This document shows, in pieces, positions 3 to 23,235 of a stretch of 64,000 bases of DNA (the first letter of the stretch is position 1; every line of letters starts with the position of its first letter). Both the position numbers and the translations under genes were made by a program. The stretch comes from Longimicrobiales bacterium (GTDB taxonomy: Bacteria; Gemmatimonadota; Gemmatimonadetes; Longimicrobiales; Gaopeijiaceae), in assembly GCA_965218325.1 (NCBI GenBank), contig CBDCKR010000002.1, positions 2,339,869 through 2,403,868 on the forward strand, written 5' to 3'. The notes under the pieces are model-generated. The model was not told where the DNA came from, made no database searches, and was given only the letters and a program-made list of their open reading frames with translations.

Positions 3-239
3 AACCCAAGCGTTTGGGTGAAGGTTGAGGGATCTGGAAACGGCGGTTGGGGTATCTCGTTCGGTGCTTATCTGAATCGCAGCCAATCCAGTATCGGAAC
101 CTATCTGACGTGGCGAAGGGACTACCGCGAAAACGGCAGAATCTTTGCTGAGATCGTTGGTGCTTTGGACGGTAACGAGGAACTGGAAAGCGCGCTCGAC
201 GGATGGAAGCGTTGGTCCAACTCCACAGGACTGACCTGA
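3..239 (+). pseudogene. 3' end of unidentified gene entering from left edge, truncated by an IS3 fragment
   Basis: Frame is open from the window edge (..GNGGWGISFGAYLNRSQSSIGTYLTWRRDY..). Its TGA (237-239) lies inside the IS terminal repeat TGACCTGAC. Confidence 0.3.
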
Positions 240-424
240 CCCCCTGAAACGAGACCAGGTGCAATGTTAGGATCGACCTGGTCTGAAGCTTTTCAGCGAA
301 GAGGTCAGGATGGGAAAGAAGCGACACACTCCGGAGCAGATCATCACTGCACTGCGGGAGGCAGAGGTCAGTCTGGCCCGCGGCAAATCCGTGAAGCTGA
401 TCAGCCGGGAGCTCGGCATCACCG
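233..424 (+). mobile_element. ~190 bp left-end fragment of the IS3-family element found complete at 34912..36182 (inverted orientation)
   Basis: Near-identical to the reverse complement of 35990-36182, including terminus TGACCTGACCCCCTGAAACGAGACC and the first 38 orfA codons (MGKKRHTPEQIITALREAEV..LGIT). Homology stops at ~424. Confidence 0.85.
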
Positions 425-648
425 GCTCGAGCGAGCCCGACGCTGGGATCCGCGAGGAACTGGCCCGGATCGAGCGGGCGATCCTTCAGGGCGCGGTGCA
501 GATCCTGGAGGAGTTCGGAGGCCTGCAGGCCGCCATGAAGCGTAGCGTCGTGCTCGAGAAGCAGGTGCACCGCCAGCCCGAACCCGGGTCCATCCGGCGG
601 GCCAGCACCTGGCGGACGGTGCGTCTCGCGGGGGCGCGCTACCGATGA
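425..648 (+). pseudogene. Copy A of a conserved ~70-aa C-terminal coding fragment (family also at 11641..11862 and 19797..20126)
   Basis: IREELARIERAILQG..GGLQAAMKRSVVLEK..STWRTVRLAG aligns with EIVRIEQAIRAKDDRVLKEYGDLQACLKRIVELK..ATWRSRRLPGG. It is fused in frame to the IS3 orfA fragment. Confidence 0.5.
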
Positions 649-946
649 CCGGCGCGCGACTTACGGCCGCACTGGAGTGCGCAAACGACGCGGGGGGCCG
701 ATGCGCACTTTGGCCCTCCGGCGATGCGCACGCGTTTTTACGGAGTAAGCCACGACACGGCCACGTCTTGCGCCCTTCGCGGCCGGGTCGGTCAGCGCCG
801 CACGGGCAGCACTGACCGGGACGGGAGCGACCCCCCAGTCCGAGGGCCTGGTACGGGCGCGGGGCCGAGTGTGTTTTCACACCCTCGGCCCCTGCCCTCC
901 AGGGGTCGCTCCCGGTCCAGGTATCCCTTTCGGGAAGGCAAACGCC
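649..946 (+). repeat. Structured repeat copy A (candidate ncRNA or recombination site)
   Basis: Outer stem GGGAGCGACCCC (823-834) / GGGGTCGCTCCC (902-913) encloses hairpin GGGGCCGAG.GTGTG-TTTT-CACACCCTCGGCCCC. Followed by TCCAGGTATCCCTTTCGGGAAGGC. Same architecture as copies B and C. Confidence 0.5.
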
Positions 947-4114: not shown

Positions 4115-4257
4115 GAAACCCCATCGCCTTGGGAATGAACTTCCCGTCGTAGACCACTTCCGCCGGTTGCGGTGCCAACTGCCCCAATATTGGGGCTTGC
4201 CGCAGCGGAAAGGTAATCTCGGACCGGGGGGGTGGCAGGAGCAAGGCAAGTTCACCG

Positions 4258-4592: not shown

Positions 4593-4644
4593 ACCCTACC
4601 GCTTCCGCCGACTTGCGGTACGTCCGTTCTACGAGCCAGCACGG

Positions 4645-4836: not shown

Positions 4837-5040
4837 CGTCCCGTCGGCCGGTCGAACACCTCGCGGCGGTCGCTGAGCTCCCTCGGAAATGTCCCCATCG
4901 CCTGCTCCCCTCACCGACTATCGGGGCGGAACAGAGTGCGGGATGGCACGCGGCCACGCAAGGCCGTGGGAGTGCTAAGGGTACCGGACCGGTTTTCACC
5001 CGTTCGCATGGGAGAGCAGCTTACCCAATGTGCAACATTC

Positions 5041-5125
5041 GGGGCTGGCAAGGGGTGGCTCCGCCCCCTTCGATCCCCCGGACGCCCGCGCTCCGGCGGA
5101 GTTCGCGGGCGGGGGGCTCGCCCCC
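5041..5125 (-). repeat. GC-rich REP-like repeat, copy a (reverse orientation)
   Basis: GGGGCTGGCAAGGGGTGGCTCCGCCCCCTTCGATCCCCCGGACGCCCGCGCTCCGGCGG is the reverse complement of the core shared by 7941..8037 and 12346..12438. Confidence 0.7.
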
Positions 5126-8156: not shown

Positions 8157-8511
8157 AAATCGCATCAAATCGCGGGAACCCCGGTCGGCTCGAACTGCTA
8201 ACGGTACCTGCCCCGGGCCGCCTCCCTCCGTTTAACGATTCGGGGGGCCGACCACGCGTCCTTCCAGGCCCTTGCCGTCCTCCGAAGTCACGGCATCATA
8301 GGCGATGTGGTCTGCTCCCACAGCCCGCTGCCGGATCTCTTCGGCCAGAATGATCGCGGCCGCCATTCGTGTTGCTATTAGTCCGACCGGCTCGGAGCGA
8401 AAGCGAGTGCCAATTGCCTCCCGTTGGCAACCACTAACTGATGACACGGTGCCTTTCTTCGTGCCTGAGTGAATTCTCCAACACATACACCTCGACATGT
8501 CGCCTATAGGC

Positions 8512-8946
8512 CGCGTAACCGAGGCCTCCCCGTAGCTCACGCCGTCCGCCTCAAGCTCGACCAGCGCCTCCCCCAGCCGGTCGGACTCGGTCGCGGCGGC
8601 GGAGTCGACCATCGCGGCCGCCGTGCCCTCGGTCTCCTGCACGTGCGCCATCATCGAGTAGCGCCTAGCGAAATAGTGGCGCTGCGCGCCACGGATCCGG
8701 CGCCGGGCCGCCTCCATCGCCCACGGACGCCACTCGAGCGACACCGTCATCGCCGCGTCCAGGCAGTAGAGCTCCCGGAGCAGGTTCGCATGCGCCTGCC
8801 CGGGCGGAGAGAGGAGCGAGTACAGGATCACTGGCTCCCCGTCGAGGCGGAGGTGAGAGCGCTCGGCCTCGAGTTCCGAGAGGGCCAGCCGCCAGTTCAT
8901 CCCGCTCCCCGTCGCGCCGTCCCACACCGTGCCCGGGCGGTTGATC
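8512..8946 (-). pseudogene. trbE: trbE/virB4 internal fragment (continues the 5' fragment at 22026..22643)
   Basis: ..INRPGTVWDGATGSGMNWRLALSELEAERSHLRLDGEPVILYSLLSPPGQ..SLEWRPWAMEAARRRIRGAQRHYF.. matches the TrbE/VirB4 N-terminal region. Homology ends at an AT-richer junction at ~8510. Confidence 0.65.
8938..8946. repeat. 9-bp direct repeat CGGTTGATC (left copy) flanking the 13 kb insertion in trbE
   Basis: Identical 9-mer at 22026..22034. Joining the two copies restores a continuous TrbE reading frame (..LLSELINR|PGTVWDG..). Confidence 0.7.
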
Positions 8947-9222
8947 TGCTGTCTGTCCTGTCCCTATGTCATCATAAGTATATGATCTATAGTGAGTTAT
9001 GGATGCAGTAGTTTCTGGTCCGACTCGTTTCTATCGTATGTGATCCCGTATAATTAGCGGGCGATTACACGGGAGCTTACGGTACGTTCGCGGAACCCGT
9101 GACGAGTGGACCGTAGCGGAGGTTCCCGGAGGAGGCGAAGGAGCGAACCTTGCGGGAGGGCGGGTTGTCGATGGCCCCTGTCCTCTCGCATTGCGAACGA
9201 TTCAGATGGTTATCGTCTCAGA

Positions 9223-9450
9223 TCACTCGGCACTGCTACGGCTCGCGGCGATCTGTTCTCGGATCCACGCATCCACCTCGGACTCGATCCAGCCGACGGC
9301 GCGCGCGCCTAGCCGGATCGGTTGGGGAAAGCTCCCGTCGGCCACCCGCACGTAGATCGTGCTCCGCGCCAGCCCGGTGCGGGCCTGCACTCGAGGTAAC
9401 CTCAGGACGCGCGCGGGCGCGTCCATGCCCTGTTCCATTGCTCTCGTCAT
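9223..9450 (-). CDS. alpA: AlpA-family transcriptional regulator / excisionase
   Basis: GGAGG RBS plus ATG at 9450. ..VLRLPRVQARTGLARSTIYVRVADGSFPQPIRLGARAVGWIESEVDAWI.. is the classic AlpA/MerR-like HTH. Confidence 0.8.
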   Translation of the reverse strand: MTRAMEQGMDAPARVLRLPRVQARTGLARSTIYVRVADGSFPQPIRLGARAVGWIESEVDAWIREQIAASRSSAE

Positions 9451-9739
9451 CGGTCTGCCTCCGTTCTGTTCGGTGAAGAATTCCGGGGCGCGTTGCCCCG
9501 GGGGAGGGAACAGGGGCCACATGGGCCCGGCGGCAGGCTTCGATGAACACGGGGACCTGACAGGCCATCGCCAGTCTCGGGGGAGCGGCCAGGACGGAGC
9601 TGACGCACCGGGTTGGGATCTCCCACCGCCTGCAGGCCGAACGTCGACGGCTTCACGCCCGTGCGCTCGAGGGTTGCATCCACTCGCGATTCGAAGTGCC
9701 TCGTCAGCGTCTCCATGGCAGTTGGGGTCGAGACCCGGC

Positions 9740-11640
9740 ATGTGAGGACCCGCTCATGCACTGCGGTGGACTGAAGCCGGCTCAGGAAGTTCCGGCCCAT
9801 ATCGCGCTCCATCCCACGCCTGAGCTCACGGCCCGCGAACCGGCCCCGGAAGCCCGAGGCTCTGGACGCCTCCAGACGCGCCTCCACCTGCTCCATCACG
9901 TGGAGCGCCGTGGCCCGCCCGAACCGCGCCAGCAGCGCGCGCGGCAGCGGGTCCCGGTTCTTGATCGTCCCGGTCGCCGTTCCGTCCGTGATCCGTGCGC
10001 CGGAGGCGTTGGACAGCGTCAGCGTCACCGTTTCCTCGCCCTCGTCGTGATCGTCGTCAAGCACCGCGACCGAGACGCTCTTCGACTGCTCGCCCGCCGC
10101 GAAGCGGAGCGTGCCGCTCGTGGCGGTGTAGTCCGCGCCCGCCGTGGCCGTGCCGTTCGATGTGGCGTAGTCCACCGTCACCGTGCCGCTCGCGGCGCGG
10201 TCCAGCGTGACCGCGAAGGCCAGCGCCGCGTGCGTGTTCTCGTCCACCCGCGCATCGGCGACCGCGATCCCCGCCGGGCCGTTGACCGTCGCCGACACGC
10301 TGCTCTCAAGACCGCGCCCGTCCGAGGTCTCCACCGCCCCGGCGGGCAGCCTGATGGATACAGCTCCGTTGCCGGACGGCTCAACCGTGATCGTCCAGCC
10401 CTGACTGCTGCCCTGCTGCTTGCGCTGCGCATTGCGTACATCGCCACCCGTCACCGCGAACGCCGCGTCCCGCAACGTCTTGAAGCTCAGCCCCGCCACG
10501 TCCTCGCTGAACGTCAGCCCGAACGTGAAGCGCTCCCCGGTGTGCTCACCCGGCACGCCGCTGAAACTCGCCGTCAGCGGATCGGAGGGCGGATCTCCCT
10601 CGCTGGCCGACGGTCCCTTCACCGTCGCCGACGGGGTGTTGGTCAGCGCCCGCGGCGTGTCCTCGCGGGTGCAGACGGCCCCGGTCGTGCCGCAGTCGCG
10701 GCCCCGGGGGAGCGTGATCGTCACGTTGTCCGCGCCCGATGGCTCGACCGTGATCTCCCACAGGTCGTGGCGCCCGTCGACGCGCCGTGCGCCGGTGACC
10801 GCGCCGCCCGTCGTCGTGAAGGACTCGTCGCGCAGCGTCTGGTAGCTGATCCCGATGTCCTCGCTGAAGGCGACCCGGACGCTGAAGGCGCTCTGCCCGT
10901 CGTGCGCCTCGGGCACGCCCTCGAAGCTCGCCGTGAGCGGTTCGGTGTTGCGGATTAAGCCCGTCGCCTGCGTGTCGGGGAGCGTCGCGCCCGTGGCATT
11001 GCTGAAGTTCAGATAGAACGTTTCGCCATTGTCACTCACCGCGTCGTCGATGATCCCGACAGCCACGATCTTCTTGGTCTCGCCCGGCGCGAAGGTGAGC
11101 GTGCCGCTCGTGGCGTCGTAGTCCTGACCTGCCCGTGCTCTCCTTGTCCCCGACGGGCGGTCCGCGGTCGCGTAATCCACCGTCACCGTGCCGGAAGACG
11201 GCGGATCGAGTTCCACCCCGAACGCCATGGGGCTGCGCCCCTCGTACCCGCTGCCGTCTCGCACCCTGAGTACTGAGGGGGCGGTCGAGAGGCCGCAGTC
11301 CACGGCGTTGGCCGACCCCACGGCCGGACAGTCGATCCGCAGGAACGTCTTGCCGGACGCCAACCACTCGTCGCCGACCACCTCAAGGGTGTAGGTGAAC
11401 GCAACGTCGTGGTCACTTTGGTTGTTGTTGTCGCTGGTGGAGGTCGGGTGTTGGACCGTGTACCTGTTGCCCCGGCTCAGCGGGTCGCCGAACCTGGTCT
11501 CCAGGTCACTGAGCGCCCAGGTCGTGTTACGCCTGCCACCCGACACCGTAACCCCGTACCCATCCGGCTGGTCCGGCAACGGCGTGCCGTCGATTGTGAT
11601 GTCGTTCCAGGTGATCTTGACGTTCCCGGCGCGGTAGCGT
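9740..11640 (-). pseudogene. Calx-beta repeat surface protein fragment, truncated at both ends
   Basis: Calx-beta motifs (GETKKIVAVGIIDDAVSDNGETFYLNFSNATGATL; GEQSKSVSVAVLDDDHDEGEETVTLTLSNASGARI). Two ~105-aa internal repeats (PLTASF.GVP..H.G..F.F...FSED..). No signal peptide or credible start. The tail is out of character after ~9740. Confidence 0.65.
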
Positions 11641-11862
11641 TTGGCGAACACGCTGGACCACGAAATCGGCCGCGAGATCGTCCGAATCGAGCAGGCCATC
11701 CGCGCCAAGGATGACCGGGTGCTCAAAGAGTATGGCGACCTGCAGGCCTGCCTCAAGCGGATCGTCGAGCTGAAGGACCTCCACCGATCCTCGACTCCAG
11801 GAACGATGATCCACGGCTTCGCGACATGGCGCTCGAGACGGCTCCCTGGAGGCGGATTTTGA
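11641..11862 (+). pseudogene. Copy B of the conserved ~70-aa C-terminal coding fragment
   Basis: ..DHEIGREIVRIEQAIRAKDDRVLKEYGDLQACLKRIVELKDLHRSSTPGTMIHGFATWRSRRLPGGGF*. About 60% identical to the C-terminus of the 19797..20126 ORF. Confidence 0.55.
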
Positions 11863-12166
11863 ACGCGGATCGGCGAGGGTGGGTGCTGATCGGCGAGTGC
11901 ACATCAGACAACGGGGTGCATGTGCACCGAAACGCCATTTCGATGTGCGCGCCAGCGCTCCCGTATGTGGCTGGCTGTCTTACAGTTGCGGCACGGCCGC
12001 CGGAGCGGCGACGCCGCTCCGGAGCTTTCGGCCGAAGAAGGGAGCGACCCCCCGGATTCGATGCCTCGATCGGCATCGCGGAGGGTTGGCATGTGCACAC
12101 GCATGCCACCCTCCGCCGGGGGTCGCTCCCCTCCAGCAATCCCTAGCGGGAAGGCCATCAAGCGCC
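11863..12166 (+). repeat. Structured repeat copy B (candidate ncRNA or recombination site)
   Basis: Hairpin GTGCACAT(11897)..ATGTGCAC(11927). Outer stem GGGAGCGACCCCCC(12040)/GGGGGTCGCTCCC(12130) encloses GGAGGGTTGGCATGTGCACACGCATGCCACCCTCC. Tail TCCAGCAATCCCTAGCGGGAAGGCC. Confidence 0.55.
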
Positions 12167-12345
12167 GCTGCGAGCGCGGCGTATCAACGAATCCGGCCGC
12201 CAGTCGCGGCTTTTCACCAGCTAGGTGGCTCGGCAAGTCGTCCCAGTGAGGTCGGCGTCGGCGCTCGACCAAGCCCGAAACTGCCCCGAGGTGGTTGAGG
12301 TTGCCGCCGATGCGCGCGACCTGCCGGCCGCGTGCGCGCCATGGC

Positions 12346-12438
12346 CTGCCGGAGCGCGGGCGTCCAGGGGATCGAAGGGGGCGGAGCCACCCTCGCCAGC
12401 CCCTGCCGGGGACCCGCGAAGCGTGGCCCCAAAGGGTA
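12346..12438 (+). repeat. GC-rich REP-like repeat, copy c
   Basis: CCGGAGCGCGGGCGTCCAGGGGATCGAAGGGGGCGGAGCCACCCTCGCCAGCCCCTGCCGGGGACCCGCGAAGCGTGGCCCCAAAGGGTA. Confidence 0.75.
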
Positions 12439-12811
12439 GGCTGGCTTGACCACCTTAGAGTGGCTCAAGCCAGCGCTGACGGACCTCCGTCACGCACCTC
12501 CAGGCACCGCCCGGAACAGCGTCCACCGGGCCGTTGCGGGCAAGCTCCTCCGCCTCGTTGCCACCAGTCTCGCGGGCGGCGAGGGCGAGTCCGTTCGCCT
12601 TGGCGATGGCGGCGACCTCTCCCGCGCCCCGCTTTCGTACCCCTCAGGGACGGGAGTTCGTCGATCTTGGGCGATCCTACGGCCCGGCAAGGCGCTTTGA
12701 AGGGCGAGGAGCAGCGCTATTCGCCCGAAAAGCAACGCAGAACGCAGCGTCCCGGCCCGGATGCATCGCCGGTCGAATGCCGAGAGGGTTTCTTCCACGG
12801 GCTGCCAGGAT

Positions 12812-13303
12812 TCATGACCCATGCACATGCGCGTGGACGGGAGTCGTCACGAAGTCGGGATGTCCGGACCCGATGGTACCATGCATGAGCTTGAAAGTCA
12901 CTCCCGTTTCACCCTCCGCGACGCCGTGTAGATGGCCACCGAACTCTCCCGGCGTATCCTGTTCGAACTCGGCAATCGATTCATCTTCGATATCCACCTC
13001 CAGGTAGAGCTCCTGGCCGAGAGTGATCGCATCGCCGTCATGATCGACAAATCGCACCGCGATGTGGGGCGTCTCCTCACCTGCATCGACCTCCATCTCG
13101 CCGACCCATCTCTGAGTCTCCCCATCGTAGGTGGCGATCACGAGGCCGCCCATGACCAGCTCGACTCCCTCGGGTTCCGCATGTTCCTCTTCGACCTCGG
13201 TCATCGACTCGCTGCAGCCGGCAAGCGTCAGGGCGAGAATGGCCGCCAATGCGGCCAGCGGGCTTCTGTAGCTCTTCGTGTTCATCTGTATTCTCGTGTT
13301 CAT
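12812..13303 (-). CDS. His-rich lipoprotein, possibly metal-binding
   Basis: AAGGAG RBS 7 nt before the ATG at 13303. Lipobox LALTLAGC. C-terminal HLHGVAEGE..KLMHGTIGSGHPDFVTTPVHAHVHGS. Confidence 0.6.
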   Translation of the reverse strand: MNTRIQMNTKSYRSPLAALAAILALTLAGCSESMTEVEEEHAEPEGVELVMGGLVIATYDGETQRWVGEMEVDAGEETPHIAVRFVDHDGDAITLGQELYLEVDIEDESIAEFEQDTPGEFGGHLHGVAEGETGVTFKLMHGTIGSGHPDFVTTPVHAHVHGS

Positions 13304-13313
13304 CTGTATTCTC
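13278..13313. repeat. Perfect 18-bp tandem duplication spanning the lipoprotein start codon
   Basis: GTGTTCATCTGTATTCTC occurs twice (13278-13295, 13296-13313). This duplicates the ATG and gives MNTRIQ-MNTKSY. Confidence 0.9.
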
Positions 13314-13503
13314 CTTCGATAGCTCTTGAGTTTTTCATTGTGTCGGTCAGCACCACGCCCTCGATCTCGCCTTCGTGCTCCGGCTCCTGCGATGATGCGG
13401 GTGCCGATAGCGCGGCGAGTCCGGCGATGGTTATGACGACGCCGGTACGGAGCAAGTCGAGCAGCGTTTTCTTCAATGGATGGCGGATTCGCTTTGGACG
13501 CAC
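13300..13503 (-). CDS. Small hypothetical exported protein
   Basis: ORF with hydrophobic segment VVITIAGLAALSAPASS. Its stop overlaps the start of the downstream lipoprotein gene. Confidence 0.3.
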   Translation of the reverse strand: MRPKRIRHPLKKTLLDLLRTGVVITIAGLAALSAPASSQEPEHEGEIEGVVLTDTMKNSRAIEGEYR

Positions 13504-13587
13504 GGTTCACGGATACGGGCCACCCGCGATAGGGTGACCAGACCGTGAAAGGACGGAAGGAGCGGGGCGCGGGCGCCCCGAGGCGCG

Positions 13588-13950
13588 TCAAGCGGTGGGC
13601 GGAGCCCTGGGAAAGACCGAACCGACCAGGACCCGCGCGATGGGGACTCGGTCAGCGTCTCGGTTCGCCTCGGGTAGTCGGAGGGGAGGCTCGCCTACCT
13701 GGGAAAGCGTGATCCCTTCCGAGACCCTGGCCTTGGAGAGCGATCGCACCACTTGGCAGAAGAAGTGCCCGTGATCGACGGCACAATCTGAATTTTCCGG
13801 CGATTCGATATGAACCGGTGACCCGAATAGCTCGATGTCGAGGATCGCATCGGCGGGACTCAGGCTGGCCGAAACGCCGATCTGAAGCGTGGCGATGCAC
13901 GAAATGCCCACCCGGCGCAGGTCCCATCTGCTCGATTGCCGGAAGAACAA
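13588..13950 (-). CDS. Hypothetical protein with Cys/His cluster
   Basis: ORF ..VHIESPENSDCAVDHGHFFCQVV.., upstream of the His-rich lipoprotein. No family recognised. Confidence 0.3.
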   Translation of the reverse strand: MFFRQSSRWDLRRVGISCIATLQIGVSASLSPADAILDIELFGSPVHIESPENSDCAVDHGHFFCQVVRSLSKARVSEGITLSQVGEPPLRLPEANRDADRVPIARVLVGSVFPRAPPTA

Positions 13951-14053
13951 GTGCCGCCGCCTTCAGAGTTTGAGAAGCGCGAGAACCTACGAAAATTAAA
14001 GCCGCTTTTCCTCGGTCGTCAAGTGCTCGAAGGCCACAAAGCCCGCGCACTCA

Positions 14054-14127
14054 TGGGCCCAGAGAGACTTGAACCCCCGACCGTCGGATTATGAGTCCGC
14101 TGCTCTAACCGCCTGAGCTATGGGCCC
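14054..14127 (-). tRNA. tRNA with CAT anticodon (Met, or Ile2 if lysidine-modified)
   Basis: GGGCCCATAGCTCAGGCGGTTAGAGCAGCGGACTCATAATCCGACGGTCGGGGGTTCAAGTCTCTCTGGGCCCA. The acceptor, D, anticodon (CTCATAA loop) and T arms (GGTTCAAGT) all pair. CCA is not encoded. Confidence 0.9.
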
Positions 14128-14159
14128 ATCTTAACGGTAACCGAAAGGTGAGCCGCCTG

Positions 14160-14795
14160 CTACAGGGTGCCGAACAGACGGTCGCCCCCGTCCCCGAGGC
14201 CTGGAAGGATGTAGCCACGCTTGTTGAGCCTGCGGTCGAGTGCCGCAGCGAATATGGGCACGTCAGGGTGCTCCATAGCCAGGCGGCCGGCTCCCTCGGG
14301 CGCCGCAATCAGACACATCAGTGCGATGTCGTGCGCCCCGCGTGCCTTCAGATCCGCGATAGAGGCACAGGCAGTGCCACCGGTTCCAAGCATCGGATCC
14401 ACCAGCAGAAAGCTGCACCGTTCGGCGTCGGGGGGCAGTTTTCCGTAGTAGCGCACGGGCTGCAGCGTCTCTTCGTTCCGATAGAAGCCCAGATGGCCCA
14501 CCCGCGCTCCCGGAATCAGCCGCAGCACTCCCTCGACCATGCCCAGCCCCGCCCTCAGGATCGGGACGACGACGATCCGGTCTTCGCGGATACGACGCGC
14601 CCGCGTCTCTTCGAGTGGTGTCGAGAAGGCCACCTCTTCGCCCCTCAGTCCTCGCAGGGCCTGGAAGGTCATCAGCAGCGTGATCTCCTCGACGAGTTCC
14701 CGCATCCGCTTCTGCCCGGTGCTCCGGTCCCGCACAAAGGACAGCTTGTGTTCGATGAGCGGATGCTCGACCACCTCGATTGTCAGCTCAGCCAT
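14160..14795 (-). CDS. upp: Uracil phosphoribosyltransferase
   Basis: ..VEHPLIEHKLSFVRD..VVVPILRAGLGM..LLVDPMLGTGGTA..YILPGLGDGGDRLFGT. Confidence 0.9.
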   Translation of the reverse strand: MAELTIEVVEHPLIEHKLSFVRDRSTGQKRMRELVEEITLLMTFQALRGLRGEEVAFSTPLEETRARRIREDRIVVVPILRAGLGMVEGVLRLIPGARVGHLGFYRNEETLQPVRYYGKLPPDAERCSFLLVDPMLGTGGTACASIADLKARGAHDIALMCLIAAPEGAGRLAMEHPDVPIFAAALDRRLNKRGYILPGLGDGGDRLFGTL

Positions 14796-14805
14796 TCCAT
14801 CTCCT

Positions 14806-15528
14806 CTAGCGACGCGACCGGCCGCGGCCCCCTCGCCGGATCAGGGCGCGCGCCTCCGCAAGTTCCGATGTGTGCGCCGGCCTCCAGATGCCGGGCTTCA
14901 GTTTTCCCAGACGGAAGGGGCCGAAGCGCGTGCGTACGAGTTCCACCACCGGATGCCCCACCGCCTTCAGCAGCCGCCGCACCTCCCGCTTTCGGCCTTC
15001 CGCCAGGACCAGCCTCACACCCCAATCCTCTGCGCCGAATCGGACCTTGCGGACCGACCTGGGCCGCGCAAAGCCGTCTTCCAGCTCGATGCCATGCCTC
15101 AGCGACCGCAGCCCCCGGGCTGTTATCTGCCCGGCCACCATCTCGACGCCCCCGCTGGGATGAGCCAACGCGAACCCCATGTCCCCGTCGTTGGTGAGGA
15201 GCAGCAGCCCCGAAGTATCGCGATCGAGTCGACCCACGTAGCGCAGCGATCGTGCCGAGTTGGGGCGGAGGGCGTAGATCGTCTCGCCGCCGTGAGGATC
15301 GCCACGGGTGCAGAGAACTCCACGCGGCTTGTGGAAGACGATCCACCGCCGCGGCGCGACTTCCACCACACGCCCATCCAGCATCACGGTGTCGACGCCC
15401 GGGGTCACGAGCGTCCCCATGACGGTGACTGGCACGCCGTTTACCGCGATCCGGCCATCGCGCATCAGGACTTCGGCCTGACGGCGCGACGCCGCCCCTG
15501 CCCGGGAGATGTACTTCTGGACCCGCAT
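14806..15528 (-). CDS. rluB: Pseudouridine synthase, RsuA/RluB family (S4 domain plus catalytic domain)
   Basis: MRVQKYISRAGAASRRQAEVLMRDGRIAVNG.. (S4 domain) and ..YVGRLDRDTSGLLLLTNDG.. (catalytic Asp motif). Start is the internal ATG at 15528. Confidence 0.85.
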   Translation of the reverse strand: MRVQKYISRAGAASRRQAEVLMRDGRIAVNGVPVTVMGTLVTPGVDTVMLDGRVVEVAPRRWIVFHKPRGVLCTRGDPHGGETIYALRPNSARSLRYVGRLDRDTSGLLLLTNDGDMGFALAHPSGGVEMVAGQITARGLRSLRHGIELEDGFARPRSVRKVRFGAEDWGVRLVLAEGRKREVRRLLKAVGHPVVELVRTRFGPFRLGKLKPGIWRPAHTSELAEARALIRRGGRGRSRR

Positions 15529-15541
15529 GGGGGCGGAGGCC

Positions 15542-16095
15542 CTACCCTTTCGCACTCGCAGGTTCCCCAAGCGGTGTCCCTTCGCGGAGCACGACCGGCA
15601 GCTCCTCGGGACGCGGCAGGTCGTCGAGCGAGGCAAACCCGAAGTGCTCCATGAACCGGCCGGTGGTCCCGTAGAGGACCGGGCGCCCAACCCCGTCCCC
15701 GCGCCCCACCGCCTCGATCAGGCCGCGATCGAGCAGTGTACGGATCACCCCCGTGGAATTGACGCCCCGGATGTACTCCATCTCCACCCGGCTGATCGGC
15801 TGTCTGTAGGCCACGATCGCCAGGGCCTCGAGCGCGGGGCCCGAAAGGCGCGATGTCTTCGGCACCGTATCGAAGCGTTCCAGATAGGGCGCGAACTCCG
15901 GCCGCGTCATGAGCCGTCGGCCACCTCACGCAGTTCGAAGGCTCGGCCAGACCGGTCGTATTCGCCCTGAAGGGCCGCGAGGGCCGCCTCGACCCGGTCC
16001 TCGTCCAGCGTCTCGTCAGCCCGCGCGATGTCGCCGGGCGCGAGCGGCGCGTCACTCGCAAAGAGGATCGCTTCCACGATGCTGGCGTCGTTCAT
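15542..16095 (-). CDS. scpB: Segregation and condensation protein B, interrupted by a frameshift at ~15907-15910
   Basis: N-terminal part MNDASIVEAILFASDAPL..FELREVADGS* (15907..16095). C-terminal part MTRPEFAPYLERF..LEALAIVAYRQPISRVEMEYIRGVNS.. (15542..15910) is in another frame. Confidence 0.75.
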
Positions 16096-16230
16096 CCCGG
16101 CGCCCCTTGATGTTGTTCGGGAGCAGCTGGGCCGCCGTCGGTGCCGGAAGCACCAGCCACGTCGGGATCGCCACCGCCCACCCCTGCGTTCGGCCCGCGA
16201 TAGATCCACAGCGGCGCGAACGGCTCCGTC
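16092..16230 (-). pseudogene. scpA: Possible scpA 3' remnant
   Basis: ..AAVLGFVNSILRARVTAATMRSTEPFAPLWIYRG resembles the ScpA C-terminus. No FEGPLDLL-type N-terminus is found upstream in any frame. Confidence 0.3.
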
Positions 16231-16910
16231 GACCTCATCGTCGCCGCGGTGACGCGGGCGCGCAGGATCGAGTTCACGAAACCCAGGACCGCTGCCGGGG
16301 CGCGCTGATCGGCGCAGGCTCCTAGGAGGCGGATAGATGTCGCAGCGCGTTGCGCACAGGGGCTCGGCGGTATGCAACCGGAAGTCGCGCTTGTTCCTGT
16401 CGCCGTTGAACCGCTGGCCCGGGACCGAGCGGAAGCCCTCGTCCCCCTCTTCGCTACTCCGCTAGATGAAGTGCCGAACCAGCTCATCAGGCGCCGTCCT
16501 CAGACGGTGGTCGTGGAGGCGAAGTGCCGGACGGTCCTGCCGGTGTCTGCCGGGGGGACCGTGCGCAGGTTGGTGTAAGGCGAGGTCAACTCTCTCGTGG
16601 CCAGCGAACCGAGCGACTCGGCCCTTGAGGGGTGCGGGTTCAGTCCGTTTGTTCATGGGGTAATAATAGCAGGGAAGGCGCCAGCAAGCCCGGCTAAGGG
16701 CGAGGGGAGACGTACCGGGCATTCGGAGGGACGGTCTGCCGGTCCTCGCCCCCGGAAGGCTTAGGCCGCGAGGGCAAGATCGGAGTTCGGGAGACCAGTC
16801 GGTTGCGGAACTGGTGGCATGAGGCGTACCGAACGGCTCGAAGGATCCATCCGAAGTCCTCGAACGGCGTCGAAATCAACCGTCCGGTTTCCCGCCTTTC
16901 ACTACTATAT

Positions 16911-17007
16911 TCCGGCCATTTCGGGACGGTTCATTCGGATGTCTTCCAACGGCAAGAGTGGCAGATCGTGCAACCCTGATTGAACTTACGTGATTTTTGC
17001 CGTGATT
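16911..17007 (+). repeat. Hairpin repeat family, copy 2
   Basis: ..ACGGCAAGAGTGGCAGATCGTGCAACCCTGATTGAACTTACGTGATTTTTGCCGTGATT is the reverse complement of copies 1 and 3. It supplies the TTG 'start' of the truncated 16980 ORF. Confidence 0.7.
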
Positions 17008-19490: not shown

Positions 19491-19796
19491 GGCGCTTGAC
19501 GGCCTTCCCGCCAGGGATTGCTGGAAGGGAGCGACCCGCGAGCGGAGGGTGGCATGGCCGTGCACATGCCAACCCTCCGCGGTGCCGATCGGGGCATGCC
19601 GATCGGGTGGGTCGCTCCCTCTTATCCCCGAGACCCTCGGGAACGAGCTGCCGCGCAAGCGGCCCGCCCGTAACCGCAATACGGCCAACGACATAAGAAG
19701 GAGCTCGTGCTTGCCGGGAAACGGCCTTCCGGCGCACATGCACCCATTTGTCAGATGTGCGCTCCCCGTACGGCGCGGATCCTCGCCGATCAGCGT
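19491..19796 (-). repeat. Structured repeat copy C (candidate ncRNA or recombination site)
   Basis: The reverse complement aligns along the whole of copy B. Hairpin GCGCACAT/ATGTGCGC (19742-19772). Outer stem at 19527-19539 / 19604-19619 encloses GGAGGGTTGGCATGTGCACGGCCATGCCACCCTCC. Confidence 0.55.
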
Positions 19797-20640
19797 TCAT
19801 GACCACCCTCCGGGGAGGCGGGTCGAGCGCCAGGTGGCGAAGCAATCGATCGTCGCTGGGGAGCGAAGCGTGCGCTGCATCTCCTTCAGCTCGACGATCC
19901 GCTCAAGCCCGGTCTGGAGATCCCCGTACTCGTCGAGCGTGCGGTCATCCCCCTCGAGGATGGCACGCCCGATCCGGGCGATCTCGCGCCTGGCCGCCTG
20001 AACCGAGTAGGACGAGCCGGAGGAGTCGGATGCGCGGGCACGCACCCAGTGCTCGAGGATCGTCCGGGCGCGCCGGAGCTCCCTCACCGTGCGGACGACG
20101 GCGACGCGACCCCGACGGCTCGGCACCGCTTCGTGAGCGCCTTCCAGAGGCTGCCGTGGGCTGCGCCCCAGGAGCGGAGCGGCTTGGCGGTCTCGTATCC
20201 CGGATCGACGAAGACGAAGAGGGCGTGCTCGGCCTCGAGCGCGACCGGCAGGATGCGGCGCTTGATGCGGAGCGCCTTGAGCGATTCAGCGGCTGAGACC
20301 GGGCTCGGGGCCGTCAGCGTGTCCATGCCGGCTACATCGAGGAGCCCGTTTCGTGCAGTGTCAAGCATGGGAAGAGAGGGGATATTCCAAGAGATACAAC
20401 CACGTCCCACAGCCGGACCGGGCTCCGCCAGCGCCCGCTCGAGCTGCTCCCAGAGGGGATGAGGAGAACCTCGATCCCGGCCGGTTGAATTGCGTTCGAT
20501 CCGCGACAGCTCGGTAACCGCGGCACGCCCCGGAGCCTGGCCGAGGATGAACGTGAAGCCACGGCCTGGCTCACGCCTGCCGCTGACTCGGACTCTCGTC
20601 CAACCTGATGCGGGTTAGACGATGCGCGGTGGTTCAAACA
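19797..20640 (-). pseudogene. Longest member of the fragment family: multi-frameshifted gene with a possible XRE-like HTH N-terminus and the conserved C-terminal domain
   Basis: Three overlapping frames: ..VTELSRIERN.. / ..AESLKALRIKRRILPVALEAEHALFVFVDPGYETAKPL.. / ..ARREIARIGRAILEGDDRTLDEYGDLQTGLERIVELKEMQ..FATWRSTRLPGGWS*. Lies directly downstream of int. Confidence 0.4.
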
Positions 20641-20672: not shown

Positions 20673-21920
20673 TCAGTGATCTGCCGTAGGCTCCTTACTC
20701 AGATACGCAGCCCAATTGTCCATCAGGACGCGCCTGCGCTCGAACAGGTCGGAACGCGCATAGGCAGCTTCCACCTTGTTACGAACCGCATGAGCCAACG
20801 CGGCCTCGGCGACTTCACGCGGTGCGTTGGAACACTCGCCGCACCAGTCCCTGAAGCTCGACCGGAAGCCGTGCGGCACGGCCGCGATACCCAGGTCTCG
20901 AAGCAGCGTGGAGAGTCTGCTGTGGGCAGATGCGCGGCCCTCCGGCGACGGGAAAACGAGACCGCTGCCGCCCCCGAGCGTCCGCGCCTCGCTCAGTATC
21001 TCCACAGCGCGCCCGGACAGCGGCACCCTGTGGGGGCGATGGGCCTTCGTGCGTTCGGCGGGAACCGTCCACTCTCGAGCCTCCAGGTCGATTTCATCCC
21101 AGTGCGCCAAGCGAACCTCTCCCGAGCGGGCCGCCGTCAACACCAGGAACTCGAAGGCGAGTTTCGTGGCCGGGTAAGCGTGCGACTTCCGTACCGTCTC
21201 CATCGCGCCCGTGACCTTCGAGTGATGCAACGCGCGCATGTGCCGGACTACGGCTCGTTGTCGGCCAAGCGCTTGACCGAGCACATCGCTGGCGGGGTTG
21301 TCCGGCCGAAGCCCCATCGCCACCGCCCACTTCATCACCGCCCCGATGCGCTGGCGCACCCGCCGGGCAGTCACCTGCTTGTCGTGCCAGATCGGTGTCA
21401 GCACTGCCAGGATGTCGGCTGTCGTTATCTCCCCAACCGGTCGATGGCCCAGCTGTGGGAACGCATAGACGCGCAGGCTGGAGACCCAGTCCTTTGCATG
21501 CCTGGCGCTGCGCCAGCCCGGCCGCAGCTGTTCCAGAACGCGGGCGGTCGCTTCGGCGAACGTGGGCATGTCCCGGACCTTGTGCCGCTCGGTACGCGGA
21601 TCGCCGCCCGAGCGCGCGATCTTGCGGTTCATGAATGCCTTCTCGCGGGCCTCGGCCAGCGATACCAGCTGGTAGCCCCCGAGCCCCAGCGTGCGGTTTC
21701 GACCCTGGATCCGCAGACGCTGCTCCCATCGGCGCGCGCCGGATCGGTCCACGCGCAGATAGAGGCCGTTCCCATCGCAGTAGTATCCGGGCTTGGCGCT
21801 GCGCACGAAGGCCGCGCTGAGTGCGTTATGCGGTCGCCTGCCTCGGTGTTTGGGCAAATCCAATTCGGGAGTCCCCGTACAAAGTATCGTATGTTGTATA
21901 CGGGAACATAGTGGACACAC
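20673..21920 (-). CDS. int: Tyrosine recombinase, P4-like integrase with N-terminal arm-binding domain
   Basis: ..SAKPGYYCDGNGLYLRVDRSGARRWEQRLRIQGRNRTLGLGGYQLVSLAEAREKA.. (DUF4102-type arm-binding domain). ..LTAARSGEVRLAHW..HGFRSSFRDW..VEAAYARSD. The exact start is uncertain. Confidence 0.9.
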   Translation of the reverse strand: MCPLCSRIQHTILCTGTPELDLPKHRGRRPHNALSAAFVRSAKPGYYCDGNGLYLRVDRSGARRWEQRLRIQGRNRTLGLGGYQLVSLAEAREKAFMNRKIARSGGDPRTERHKVRDMPTFAEATARVLEQLRPGWRSARHAKDWVSSLRVYAFPQLGHRPVGEITTADILAVLTPIWHDKQVTARRVRQRIGAVMKWAVAMGLRPDNPASDVLGQALGRQRAVVRHMRALHHSKVTGAMETVRKSHAYPATKLAFEFLVLTAARSGEVRLAHWDEIDLEAREWTVPAERTKAHRPHRVPLSGRAVEILSEARTLGGGSGLVFPSPEGRASAHSRLSTLLRDLGIAAVPHGFRSSFRDWCGECSNAPREVAEAALAHAVRNKVEAAYARSDLFERRRVLMDNWAAYLSKEPTADH

Positions 21921-22025
21921 AGCGACAGTGCAACCGGGAGTGTCTTACATAACTCACTGTAATAACTATAGTTAAAGAACCTTATCAGACACATATGGAT
22001 TGTATTGGAATCTATATGTAGCAGA

Positions 22026-22643
22026 CGGTTGATCAGCTCGGAGAGGAGCCGGGAAGCCTCGGCGGCCCCGAGCATCTCGATCGGCGTGTGCTCCCCTACG
22101 AGCGCCCGGCCCGCGTCCACCAGAGCCCGGAAGCGGGCAGCGGCCCCCTCGATCTCGGAACCGAGGTAGGTCGGCGCGCTCGCCCTCCTGCGCTTCCACC
22201 ACTGCGTGAGACGGGACGCTCGTCCCGACGCGGGCCCGTCCGCCACCGTCCGTAGCCTGGGATTGTGCGCCCAGACCAGGTAGGCCTCGAGCTGCTGCAC
22301 GCGGCCTGCCAGAAACGCGCGGCGCTTCCGCTGCGAGACCGCTACGATGCCGGAGCCGTCGGCGTCCCCGCCCTCGGGTGCCCTCGGCCGGCGGAGCATA
22401 TAGAAGTAGAGGCGTGTGTCGGCGTCGAGGCCCGAGAGGAGGCGCTGCCAGCGGCCGAGCACGCGGTCGATCTGCTCGGGCGAACGCCCGTCGACCACCG
22501 GCGGGCACGAGCCGGCCTGCGGCGATCAGCTCGCCGGAGCGGGTCAGGCACGTGCGGCCGTCCTCGAGCCAGCCCCAGTAGGGGAGCTCGTCGGCCAGCG
22601 AACCGGCCGCCTCGTGGTCCTGGAGCTCCGCGGAGATCCTCAC
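22026..22643 (-). pseudogene. trbE: trbE/virB4 5' fragment (frameshift near 22500, then interrupted by the 13 kb element)
   Basis: GTG at 22643 overlaps the trbD stop (GTGA). ..LADELPYWGWLEDGRTCLTRSGELIAAG.., then in another frame ..VDGRSPEQIDRVLGRWQRLLSGLDADTRLYFYMLRR..EASRLLSELINR. Confidence 0.65.
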
Positions 22644-22942
22644 TGCCCGCTCCGGATCACGAGATGCCAGGGCACCTCGGCCCACTTGCCCGGGTCGAAG
22701 CGCGCCGGGTAGCGCGTCCCGGCCCGGAGCACCGCGAGCATGTCAGGGTCCCTCCGGCCGGCCAGCCAACCGGCCGCGTAGCCCACAGCGAAGACCACGC
22801 CGCCCGTCACGAGCGAGTTCATCGCGTTCCACATCGCGAGCCCGAGCGTCGCGACGAGCAGGAACCCCCTACGCTCCACGCCCAGGATCGTGAGCGGTCG
22901 GTTGAGGGCCGGATAGCCGGCCCAGCGCCTCAGACCCCTCAT
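22640..22942 (-). CDS. trbD: Conjugal transfer protein TrbD (VirB3-like)
   Basis: MRGLRRWAGYPALNRPLTILGVERRGFLLVATLGLAMWN..DPDMLAVL. The start overlaps the trbC stop. Confidence 0.75.
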   Translation of the reverse strand: MRGLRRWAGYPALNRPLTILGVERRGFLLVATLGLAMWNAMNSLVTGGVVFAVGYAAGWLAGRRDPDMLAVLRAGTRYPARFDPGKWAEVPWHLVIRSGQ

Positions 22943-23235
22943 CAGAAGAGCCAGGCCAGGAAGTTCGCCGCGCCCATCGCCATCCCCAGCCCGAAGATGA
23001 TCCCGGCCAGCGTCCGCTTGCTCCCGCCCTCGCCGAACGCGAACATCAGCCCGCCTACCACGATCGCGATCAGAGACAGCCCCCGAGCGATCGGACCCGT
23101 GAACTGCACCTGCAGCTCGTTCACCGCCTCCACCCACGGGCTCGTCCCCTGCGCCCAGAACAGCCCGGGGGACAGCAACCACAGCGTTAGCGTGGTCCAG
23201 GCCGCCGCTCGTACCGTCCTTAACAAAGGTTGCAT
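22942..23235 (-). CDS. trbC: Conjugal transfer pilin TrbC (VirB2-like)
   Basis: Signal-like N-terminus. ..VNELQVQFTGPIARGLSLIAIVVGGLMFAFGEGGSKRTLAGIIFGLGMAMGAANFLAWLF. Confidence 0.75.
   Translation of the reverse strand: MQPLLRTVRAAAWTTLTLWLLSPGLFWAQGTSPWVEAVNELQVQFTGPIARGLSLIAIVVGGLMFAFGEGGSKRTLAGIIFGLGMAMGAANFLAWLF

What the first reader, a model, noticed from the sequence alone, without database searches (positions are those of the whole stretch)
11641..12166. Three diverged copies of a composite unit: ~70-aa C-terminal coding fragment followed by a ~300-nt element with compensatory base changes
Seen in sequence: units lie at 425-946 (+), 11641-12166 (+) and 19491-20126 (-). All share the order coding tail (..EYGDLQ..L.RIVELK..ATWRS.RLPGG*), then a 5' hairpin, then a long stem GGGAGCGACCCC/GGGGTCGCTCCC enclosing an inner hairpin, then TCCAG..ATCCCT..CGGGAAGGC.

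Evidence for covariation:
- The 5' hairpin is GTGCACAT/ATGTGCAC in B and GCGCACAT/ATGTGCGC in C.
- The inner hairpin is GGAGGGTTGGCATG..CATGCCACCCTCC in B and C, but a different self-complementary sequence, GGGGCCGAG.GTGTG..CACACCCTCGGCCCC, in A.

Copies differ by ~25-40% at the nucleotide level, so they are old paralogues and not recent duplications.

Inference: this is a structured RNA (or DNA recombination site) tied to the 3' end of a gene family. It could be serial att-site remnants of islands that target the 3' end of this gene, or an element-encoded guide/regulatory RNA. I do not recognise the motif.
Basis: partly seen in the sequence, partly recalled or inferred. Interest (0 to 1): 0.75.

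Follow-up and report, generated by a model that had tools for sequence, protein, structure and literature searches.

The report
Conjugative-element oriT-like module remnants
The three repeats are decayed leftovers of one module of mobile DNA from Longimicrobiales bacteria: the end of an unannotated DNA-binding protein gene plus a conserved, folded ~290-base non-coding element that most likely is the site where DNA is cut for cell-to-cell transfer.

Summary
Three diverged copies (65-74% identical) share a C-terminal coding tail followed by a ~290-nt structured element (ELEM).

The tail belongs to a ~310-aa protein (p310) with no Pfam, NCBIfam or PHROG match. It has an N-terminal winged helix. 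In intact integrative conjugative elements (ICEs), p310 lies between VirB8 and the coupling protein TraG/VirD4, and ELEM is the p310-TraG spacer.

ELEM occurs more than 116 times in GTDB genomes, almost all Longimicrobiales. It also occurs in small units with an integrase but no type IV secretion genes.

Its 118-nt 3' module has an invariant outer stem, two variable hairpins and a mini-hairpin. Covariation is strong: 85% of cells paired against 76% after shuffling, 0/500 shuffles as high. Rfam has no match, and no strand asymmetry favours a sense RNA.

Homology ends exactly after GGAAGG in several independent pairs, so the ELEM end is a precise DNA junction.

Best reading (about 0.5): an origin-of-transfer-type site with p310 as its partner. 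The window copies are remnants in a graveyard of mobile elements. Rivals are an integrase attachment arm and a regulatory RNA.

It is a new variant of a known kind, of moderate interest.

The parts
425..648 (+). Copy A: C-terminal roughly 75 codons of p310. They are fused in frame to the first 38 codons of a truncated IS3 OrfA (ORF 310-648).
   Evidence: Translation. tblastn to p310 aa 228-310. Homology to IS3 copies ends at 424.
649..941 (+). Copy A: ELEM of type II inner hairpins. GGAAGG ends at 938. The 3' module is 823-941.
   Evidence: 83.6 bits. L087 carries a different ELEM variant joined to the same flank exactly after GGAAGG.
11641..11863 (+). Copy B: C-terminal roughly 70 codons of p310. 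DNA homology to the family starts near 11656.
   Evidence: Orthologous B-type units in other genomes have different 5' truncation points.
11864..12157 (+). Copy B: ELEM of type I. GGAAGG ends at 12154. The 3' module is 12040-12157.
   Evidence: 124.6 bits.
12163..12189 (+). Small GC hairpin CGCCGC-TGCGAGC-GCGGCG followed by TATCAACG. The same kind of covarying hairpin plus a GATCAAC-like motif follows ELEM in many copies outside ICEs.
   Evidence: Flank list. GATCAACCG is the direct repeat at the split VirB4.
12155..12446 (+). 292-nt flank. At least 98% identical copies occur in five other loci, where a convergent P4-type integrase follows in three (L070, L071, L113). It resembles the region downstream of the integrase in the L001 island.
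19797..20380 (-). Copy C: p310 residues from about 120 to 311, with a frameshift and an internal deletion.
19500..19796 (-). Copy C: ELEM of type I. GGAAGG ends at 19503. The 3' module is 19500-19619.
   Evidence: 109.3 bits.
20676..21920 (-). P4-type tyrosine integrase immediately upstream of copy C. A related strain (L008) joins other DNA 117 nt after its stop codon, at 20559.
   Evidence: Pfam Arm-DNA-bind_3, Phage_int_M and Phage_integrase..
22022..23235 (-). ICE remnant: TrbC, VirB3 and VirB4 aa 1-207, cut off at the integrase.
   Evidence: tblastn with ICE proteins. Junction sequence.
8487..9716 (-). ICE remnant: an AlpA-like gene fragment (9250-9716) and VirB4 aa 204-357 (8487-8945). 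The VirB4 piece is the other half of the split gene.
226..424 (+). Truncated left end of an IS3-family element, which forms the 5' junction of copy A.

Best explanation
ELEM is the cis-acting DNA-processing site, of origin-of-transfer (oriT) type, of a family of integrative conjugative and mobilizable elements of Longimicrobiales (Gemmatimonadota). p310 is its cognate DNA-binding partner and the candidate relaxosome protein or atypical relaxase.

Proposed mechanism:
1. p310 binds ELEM through its winged helix. ELEM offers the 5' hairpin, the invariant outer stem GGGAGCGACCC/GGGTCGCTCCC and the conserved tail.
2. One strand is cut and rejoined at or next to the conserved tail TCCA..TCCCT.GCGGGAAGG.
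3. The strand is handed to the coupling protein TraG, which is encoded immediately downstream.
4. Small integrase units that carry p310 plus ELEM, or ELEM alone, are mobilised by the ICE machinery.

The three window copies are independent, decayed remnants of such elements in a region packed with mobile-element debris. ELEM is intact in each of them, while p310 has been cut back from its 5' side by IS, integrase-island or deletion events.

Shown here: the ICE and integrase-unit context, the structure and its covariation, the precise 3' junction, and the absence of any known relaxase.

Inferred: the transfer function, the role of p310, and the position and strand of the nick.
For: - Full-length p310 lies between VirB8 and TraG/VirD4 in type IV secretion operons that also carry VirB11, ArdC and an integrase. 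ELEM fills the p310-TraG gap and ends 11 nt before the TraG ATG.
- No called ICE gene within 10 kb on either side of p310 has a known relaxase domain. The genes to the left of AlpA differ between ICE copies, so the ICE is about 15 kb without a canonical relaxase.
- The same p310-ELEM pair occurs without any T4SS gene, directly beside a divergently oriented tyrosine integrase of another type (seven loci). ELEM alone sits 50-330 nt from such an integrase in about ten more. This is the layout of mobilizable elements.
- p310 has a confident model (pLDDT 85) with a MarR-like winged helix. In three representative proteins it is fused to the ArdC-N ssDNA-binding and MPTase domains of a conjugation protein.
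- In the outer stem of the 3' module, one pair never varies and seven more keep the commonest pair in at least 128 of 135 sequences. The tail is nearly invariant too, whereas the inner hairpins covary. That fits sequence-specific protein recognition of a folded or palindromic site.
- Homology ends 0-2 nt after GGAAGG in 10 of 16 flank-cluster pairs whose ELEM tails are at least 95% identical. An ICE-type ELEM (L087, matching L050) and a different type (window A, L106) are joined to one flank at exactly that nucleotide.
- ELEM is kept intact while p310 is truncated to at least 8 different extents in the B-type units.
- ELEM occurs on long contigs of Acidobacteriota and Dehalococcoidia, which implies transfer between phyla.
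Against: - No nick site, transfer or transcript data exist.
- p310 has no recognisable relaxase or HUH motif, and only its winged helix matches solved structures.
- From the outer stem to GGAAGG is about 25 nt and includes a mini-hairpin, which is longer than the roughly 8 nt I recall for classical oriTs (own knowledge).
- The precise junction could equally be made by the neighbouring tyrosine integrases.
- In clean helices, A.C mismatches outnumber G.T on the sense strand (22 against 9 in the two inner hairpins). The antisense strand of the 3' module also folds slightly better. The folded strand is therefore undetermined and may be the one that would send ArdC in last, not first.
- GGAAGG could simply be the TraG ribosome-binding site in ICEs.
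Confidence: 0.5

Rival explanations
1. ELEM is an attachment-site arm plus core for tyrosine integrases. Its 3' end, or the small GC hairpin just after it, is the crossover site, so ELEM marks the terminus of small integrative elements and serves as a target for incoming islands.
For: - Integrases lie next to ELEM in dozens of loci. Some are divergent and upstream (L120, L122, L026 types). Others are convergent, 111-620 nt downstream (P4 types).
- The 3' junction is precise, with 85 flank clusters among 118 copies.
- The hairpin after ELEM looks like inverted core-binding sites around a 5-7-nt spacer, followed by a GATCAAC-like motif. That motif is also the direct repeat at the split VirB4 in the window.
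Against: - In ICEs ELEM sits inside the T4SS operon, 4-5 kb from the integrase, and is contiguous with TraG in complete chromosomes.
- No consistent direct repeat or GGAAGG motif was found beyond the integrase genes.
- Bases after position +1 are not conserved, so there is no shared overlap region.
- From own knowledge of lambda-type sites, long covarying hairpins are not a feature of attP arms.
Confidence: 0.2
2. ELEM acts as RNA. It would be a structured intergenic leader that controls TraG translation, with the mini-hairpin hiding GGGA of the GGGAAGG ribosome-binding site. Alternatively it is a 3'UTR or small RNA of the p310 transcript.
For: - In ICEs ELEM lies between two genes on the same strand, apparently in one operon, so it is probably transcribed.
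- GGAAGG lies 11 nt before the TraG ATG, and half of it is paired in the mini-hairpin, which covaries as C-G against U-A (87:28; 99:26).
- Covariation is strong overall.
Against: - Most copies have no TraG and no start codon after GGAAGG, yet they keep the tail.
- Copies without any p310 coding sequence sit beside divergent integrases.
- No sense-strand G.U excess is seen; A.C mismatches are commoner.
- The outer stem is invariant rather than covarying.
- No Rfam family matches at E up to 1.
- No terminator-like or promoter-like site was found.
Confidence: 0.15
3. ELEM is a single-strand initiation site, single-strand origin or ssDNA promoter, or the replication origin of the excised element with p310 as initiator. 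It would not be the nick site itself.
For: - About 290 nt of extensive hairpins with covariation, comparable in size to single-strand origins (own knowledge).
- p310 has a winged helix and weak structural resemblance to plasmid replication proteins (E 0.01-0.2).
Against: - No iterons or AT-rich region were seen on reading the sequence.
- The precise junction at the 3' end is not explained.
- The structural matches are weak.
Confidence: 0.1
4. ELEM encodes an element-end RNA, analogous to an omega or bridge RNA, that reads into or pairs with flanking DNA and guides p310 or an integrase to targets.
For: The structured element ends exactly at an element terminus and begins within about 20 nt of the p310 stop codon. 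From own knowledge, this resembles the layout of TnpB omega-RNAs.
Against: - p310 has no RuvC, HNH or DEDD domain.
- The longest shared or complementary words between ELEM and its own flank equal those with other copies' flanks (7.0 against 7.0 nt).
- No sense-strand RNA signature is seen.
Confidence: 0.03

Closest known systems
Origins of transfer (oriT) of conjugative plasmids, ICEs and mobilizable islands, such as RP4 and R388 oriT or the oriT mimics of mobilizable genomic islands (own knowledge)
   Same: - A non-coding cis site next to the coupling-protein gene inside a type IV secretion gene cluster.
- An inverted repeat followed by a conserved single-stranded tail.
- Also carried by small integrase elements that lack their own secretion genes.
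- The end of the site behaves as a precise breakage and rejoining point.
   Different: - No relaxase of any known MOB family is present, and the partner protein p310 is unannotated.
- The site is a roughly 290-nt multi-hairpin with a three-way junction, not a short repeat plus nick.
- The nick position and strand are unknown.
attP/attL/attR sites of P4-type and other tyrosine integrases
   Same: - Adjacent to integrase genes.
- Sharp junctions with many different flanks.
- A small inverted repeat plus conserved motif just beyond ELEM.
   Different: - In ICEs the element lies in mid-operon, far from the integrase.
- No flanking direct repeats could be demonstrated.
- Long covarying hairpins are not typical of such sites.
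Integron attC sites (own knowledge)
   Same: - A structured recombination site placed right after an ORF.
- Conserved stem ends with a variable, covarying centre.
- A neighbouring tyrosine recombinase.
   Different: - No cassette arrays.
- The preceding ORF is always the same gene.
- The stem is perfect, without the extrahelical bases of attC.
Single-strand origins and ssDNA promoters of rolling-circle plasmids and plasmid leading regions (own knowledge)
   Same: Similar size and extensive folding with structural conservation.
   Different: No orientation or strand evidence is available, and ELEM additionally has a precise terminal junction.
Transposon-end guide RNAs (TnpB/IscB omega-RNA, IS110 bridge RNA)
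   Same: - A structured element that starts at the 3' end of a gene and ends exactly at an element terminus.
- An IS110-family element does occur in some copies, but as a separate insertion into ELEM.
   Different: - No RNA-guided nuclease or DEDD recombinase is encoded by the unit.
- ELEM shows no complementarity to its flanks.

Membership tests
Origin of transfer (oriT) | Lies within a conjugative or mobilizable element, next to the relaxase or coupling-protein genes | tested here: met
   ELEM lies between p310 and TraG/VirD4 in T4SS operons. It also lies in integrase-only units.
Origin of transfer (oriT) | Inverted repeat adjacent to a conserved nick region | tested here: inconclusive
   An invariant 11-bp stem and a conserved tail are present. 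Junctions fall exactly after GGAAGG. No nick has been mapped.
Origin of transfer (oriT) | Cognate relaxase of a known MOB family encoded by the element | tested here: not met
   No relaxase Pfam family appears among the ICE genes. p310 matches no Pfam, NCBIfam or PHROG family or PDB sequence.
Origin of transfer (oriT) | Confers transfer in cis | not testable with these tools
   This needs a mating assay.
Any Rfam RNA family | Covariance-model match | tested here: not met
   No hit over ELEM at the gathering threshold or at E up to 1.
Structured cis-regulatory or small RNA | Strand-specific pairing signature (G.U tolerated, A.C avoided) and defined transcript ends | tested here: not met
   A.C mismatches are at least as common as G.T on the sense strand. 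The antisense strand folds as well or better. No promoter or terminator matches. Transcripts cannot be tested here.
Tyrosine-integrase att site | Adjacent integrase gene | tested here: inconclusive
   True for many non-ICE copies. In ICEs the integrase is 4-5 kb away.
Tyrosine-integrase att site | Short core repeated at both ends of the integrated element | tested here: inconclusive
   Only 10-11-nt matches were found, and one of them lies inside the integrase gene. No GGAAGG motif recurs beyond the integrase stops.
Integron attC | Arrays of cassettes, each ORF followed by an attC, beside intI and attI | tested here: not met
   Units are single and the ORF is always p310.
IS200/IS605 or IS110 guide-RNA ends | TnpB, IscB or DEDD recombinase encoded by the same unit, with the RNA matching target or donor DNA | tested here: not met
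   p310 lacks these domains. There is no ELEM-flank complementarity. The IS110 transposase seen in L016 is a separate insertion.

The most novel reading that the evidence does not exclude
p310 is a new kind of DNA-processing enzyme with no HUH or known relaxase fold. It cuts at GGAAGG and can join that end to ectopic sites. Elements of this family would then insert or recombine through their own transfer origin. That would explain why dozens of copies have a nucleotide-exact 3' end but nested, variable 5' ends. A still bolder version is that ELEM acts as an element-end RNA that guides this reaction.
Probability: 0.12. Interest if true: 0.8.

Novelty: new variant of a known kind. Interest (0 to 1): 0.5.

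Why it matters
Conjugative elements of Gemmatimonadota, and of sponge symbionts in general, are essentially undescribed. Two literature searches found no paper on mobile elements of this group.

Three things follow from this module.
- It defines a family of about 15-kb ICEs that lack any recognisable relaxase, together with small integrase units that share the same two-part module.
- It gives a testable candidate for a new relaxase or relaxosome protein family. That family has 2272 clusters at 50% identity.
- It gives a testable candidate for a new, unusually large and structured transfer-origin type.

The covariance model is also a practical marker. It can find these elements, their remnants and cross-phylum transfers in metagenomes.

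If the precise GGAAGG junction proves to be made by p310, it would add a route by which conjugative DNA enters chromosomes.

Tried and rejected
- **Known RNA family.** Rfam gave nothing over ELEM at the gathering threshold or at E up to 1.
- **Terminator or promoter.** The consensus scans found none.
- **RNA strand signature.** The sense strand shows no G.U excess, and the antisense strand of the 3' module folds better in 90 of 105 copies. A sense RNA is therefore not favoured, though the test is weak.
- **Guide or bridge-RNA idea.** Shared or complementary words between ELEM and its own flank are no longer than with other copies' flanks.
- **Direct repeats bounding the integrase units.** Only 10-11-nt matches turned up, one of them inside the integrase gene. 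No GGAAGG core was found beyond the integrase stops.
- **Naming p310.** These all failed:
  - Pfam, NCBIfam, PHROGs and PDB sequence searches;
  - Foldseek against PDB and BFVD, which matched only the winged helix;
  - tblastn against 72,556 plasmids.
- **RNAalifold on plain MAFFT alignments.** It recovered only the outer stem and the mini-hairpin, because the two inner-hairpin types misalign. A hand-drawn structure and a covariance model were needed.
- **A universal boundary exactly at GGAAGG.** This is only partly true. Many copies outside ICEs share 10-45 further bases (a GC hairpin plus an ATCAAC-like motif), and ICE copies run on into TraG.
- **The cluster of copies holding only the 3' module.** I first read it as a second recombination boundary. 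In five loci it is explained by insertion of an IS110-family element.
- **Full history of the window (13-kb segment inside the split VirB4).** Not resolved.

Full report
**1. Observation**

The three units exist where stated.
- Copy A has a coding tail at 425-648 and ELEM at 649-938.
- Copy B has a tail at about 11641-11863 and ELEM at 11864-12154.
- Copy C, on the minus strand, has a tail at about 20380-19797 with a frameshift, and ELEM at 19796-19503.

Pairwise identities are 70% (A-B), 65% (A-C) and 74% (B-C). The quoted hairpin variants are correct. A covariance model of the last 118 nt finds exactly these three sites in the window, at 84-125 bits. The only other matches with E below 0.01 are weak antisense echoes of the same three sites.

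**2. The coding tail**

A search with the longest copy (C) returned 102 proteins. The full-length members are about 305-315 aa and have no Pfam domain. I call the family p310.

Contigs that encode full-length members show a type IV secretion operon in this order: AlpA, TrbC, VirB3, VirB4, VirB9, VirB10, an unknown gene, VirB6, VirB8, p310, a 230-300-nt gap, TraG/VirD4, VirB11, a small unknown gene, ArdC and an integrase. This is an integrative conjugative element (ICE) of about 15 kb.

ELEM is the p310-TraG gap. Its last bases, GGAAGG, lie 11 nt before the TraG ATG.

No gene of these ICEs has a known relaxase domain. The genes to the left of AlpA differ between copies, so a relaxase is unlikely to be hidden just outside the loci examined.

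What is known about p310:
- AlphaFold gives a confident model (pLDDT 85). It has an N-terminal MarR-like winged helix, a middle alpha/beta domain without a solved relative, and a helical C-terminus.
- Profile searches of Pfam, NCBIfam, PHROGs and PDB sequences, and tblastn against PLSDB plasmids, give nothing.
- The family is large, with 2272 representative clusters at E up to 0.001.
- Three representatives fuse it to the ArdC-N and MPTase domains of a conjugation protein.

**3. Distribution and anatomy of ELEM**

Almost all hits are Longimicrobiales or other Gemmatimonadota, several of them from sponge-derived bins. One contig carries up to 7 copies. A few hits lie on long contigs of Acidobacteriota and Dehalococcoidia.

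ELEM is about 290 nt long. Its 5' part contains a hairpin whose arms vary while staying complementary: GTGCACAT, GCGCACAT, GCGTGCAT, CGTGTCCGG, AGTGCGCA and others.

The 118-nt 3' module has these parts:
- an outer stem, GGGAGCGACCC/GGGTCGCTCCC, that is almost invariant on both arms;
- two inner hairpins that occur in several unrelated but self-complementary versions;
- a single-stranded TCCA segment;
- a mini-hairpin, TCCC/GGGA, that switches to TCCT/AGGA;
- the terminal AGG.

On the 135 distinct sequences aligned by the model:
- 85.2% of cells pair, against 75.9% after shuffling and 40-54% with slid partners;
- 29 of 38 pairs have double-sided changes;
- no shuffle in 500 reaches the observed values.

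The alignment was fitted to the structure, so these figures lean towards it. The independent listing of arm variants and single-sequence folds agree with it.

Rfam has no match.

The pairing shows no sense-strand RNA signature. In helices with at most two non-Watson-Crick cells, A.C mismatches (22) outnumber G.T (9) in the two inner hairpins. The antisense strand of the 3' module has the lower folding energy in 90 of 105 copies. Over the last 300 nt, which take in all of ELEM, the two strands are equal.

**4. Contexts**

Profile coordinates of 123 copies give this breakdown:
- about a quarter have a full p310 gene;
- about 37 have p310 cut back to many different points;
- about 34 begin within roughly 20-70 nt of the stop codon, so they are ELEM with little or no coding sequence;
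- 19 keep only the 3' module or less, several of these being cut by the edge of the fetched block.

Five of the 3'-module-only copies are explained by an IS110-family insertion sequence that sits exactly at the 5' arm of the outer stem.

Thirteen copies lie in ICE context.

Many others sit beside tyrosine integrases:
- A second integrase type (L120, L122 and L026 types) lies divergently, 225-391 nt upstream of full-length p310, in seven loci.
- The same type lies 50-330 nt upstream of ELEM alone in about ten loci.
- P4-type integrases lie convergently, 111-620 nt downstream, in about a dozen loci.

So p310 plus ELEM is a two-part module shared by ICEs and by small integrase units that have no secretion genes. 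ELEM can persist without p310.

**5. The 3' end is a precise junction**

After GGAAGG the 118 usable copies fall into 85 flank clusters.

Among 16 pairs of flank clusters whose last 60 nt of ELEM are at least 95% identical, identity stops 0-2 nt after GGAAGG in 10.

The clearest case involves copy A. Window A and L106 carry a type II ELEM. L087 carries an ICE-type p310-ELEM nearly identical to that of ICE L050. All three are joined to the same flank, CAAACGCCACGG.., exactly after GGAAGG, whereas L050 continues into TraG.

The boundary is not universal. Many copies outside ICEs share a further GC hairpin and a GATCAAC-like motif.

**6. The window**

The first 23 kb are a graveyard of mobile-element debris.
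- TrbC, VirB3 and VirB4 aa 1-207 (23235-22022, minus strand) end at a P4-type integrase (21920-20676). Copy C follows the integrase.
- The rest of VirB4 (aa 204-357) lies at 8945-8487, behind an AlpA fragment.
- Both VirB4 junctions carry the 13-bp repeat GATCAACCGyCyG.
- The segment between the two junctions holds copies B and C, tRNA-Met and a pseudouridine synthase.

Copy A is fused to a truncated IS3 left end.

Close relatives of this strain differ here. L008 lacks 15548-20558 and L005 lacks 14217-19723.

B-type units in ten loci share ELEM plus a 292-nt flank. They have at least eight different 5' truncation points, each next to different DNA.

The three copies are therefore independent remnants, not duplications within this window.

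**7. Explanation**

The best-supported reading is that ELEM is the cis-acting DNA-processing site of this element family, of oriT type, with p310 as its partner. The arguments for it are:
- the position next to the coupling-protein gene;
- the lack of any other relaxase candidate;
- the presence of the same module in integrase-only units;
- retention of ELEM while p310 decays;
- sequence-invariant stem arms and tail, which suggest protein recognition, flanking freely covarying hairpins;
- nucleotide-exact junctions at the conserved tail, as expected for a cut-and-rejoin site;
- the ArdC fusions;
- occurrence in other phyla.

Function, nick position, strand and the catalytic role of p310 are all inferred. 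I put this reading at about 0.5.

**8. Rivals**

- **Integrase attachment arm and core (0.2).** This explains the integrase adjacency and the sharp ends. It does not explain the mid-operon position in ICEs, and no bounding repeats were found.
- **RNA leader, 3'UTR or small RNA (0.15).** This fits the operon position and the partial burial of the GGGAAGG ribosome-binding site. It does not fit the many copies that keep the tail without TraG, and there is no strand signature.
- **Single-strand origin or replication origin (0.1).**
- **Element-end guide RNA (0.03).** The only test I could run was negative.

**9. Comparison and novelty**

The module works most like a relaxase-oriT mobilisation module. 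It fails one membership criterion, the presence of a known MOB relaxase, and the decisive criteria (nick, transfer in cis) cannot be tested here.

I found no description of these elements. Two literature searches returned nothing on mobile elements of this group.

I rate it a new variant of a known kind, of moderate interest. It offers a candidate new relaxosome protein family, an unusually large structured transfer-origin type, and a useful marker for ICEs and their debris in Gemmatimonadota.

Noticed in passing
L016:3870-5415 (IS ORF 4034-5068 +); also L013, L028, L078, L116: An IS110-family insertion sequence (DEDD_Tnp_IS110 plus Transposase_20) sits at exactly the same position, the 5' arm of the ELEM outer stem (..GAC|AAGCGACCCC). 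It does so in five loci that carry different ELEM variants, so ELEM appears to be its specific target.
   Followed up: partly
window 22022-22643 (-) and 8487-8945 (-): VirB4 is split into aa 1-207 and aa 204-357, with a 13-bp direct repeat GATCAACCGyCyG at both junctions. The 13 kb between the halves starts with a P4-type integrase. It also contains tRNA-Met, a pseudouridine synthase and copies B and C.
   Followed up: partly
L001:6286-6304 and 9535-9553; L001:11973; L123:about 2633-2790; L048; L050: P4-type integrase islands interrupt ICE genes at recurrent places. One sits in VirB8 at aa 65, flanked by the 19-bp repeat CCGTGGCCTACGAGGCCGC. Others sit in TraG at about aa 270-280, in at least four loci.
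   Followed up: partly
window 15548-20558 and 14217-19723: Closely related strains differ here. L008 lacks the first segment and L005 lacks the second. The L005 junction lies immediately after an internal CCGGAAGGC in the 5' part of ELEM C, the same heptamer that ends ELEM.
   Followed up: partly
L010:241-579; L021:3243-3589; L069:7093-7439: Pairs of ELEM 3' modules face each other tail to tail, with only 107-110 nt between their GGAAGG ends. Many wider convergent pairs also exist.
   Followed up: no
window 310-648 (+): An intact 112-codon ORF fuses the N-terminal helix-turn-helix of an IS3 OrfA in frame to the last roughly 75 residues of p310.
   Followed up: no
P0127, P0133, P0170 (representative proteins): The p310 domain is fused to the ArdC-N ssDNA-binding domain and a zincin-like MPTase domain.
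   Followed up: partly
L041, L054, L072: ELEM copies lie on long contigs assigned to Vicinamibacterales, another Acidobacteriota genome and Dehalococcoidia. This suggests transfer between phyla.
   Followed up: no
window 51476-51595 (+): A SAM-I riboswitch (Rfam RF00162, 69.4 bits).
   Followed up: no
window 10082-10176 (+): ARAGORN calls a 95-nt tRNA-Thr inside the Calx-beta ORF, but Rfam does not confirm it, so it is probably a false positive. tRNA-Met at 14053-14128 (-) is confirmed by both tools.
   Followed up: no
window 32553-32645 (-): An isolated fragment of about 30 codons from the C-terminus of a P4-type integrase. It may mark another island border.
   Followed up: no
window 5264-6139 (-), 1451-4291 (-), 12812-13591 (-): A DDE_3 transposase and a TonB-dependent receptor lie in this region. 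An ORF spans a 2.1-kb deletion relative to L005, L008 and L049; in L005 that extra DNA is a TonB-dependent receptor gene.
   Followed up: no
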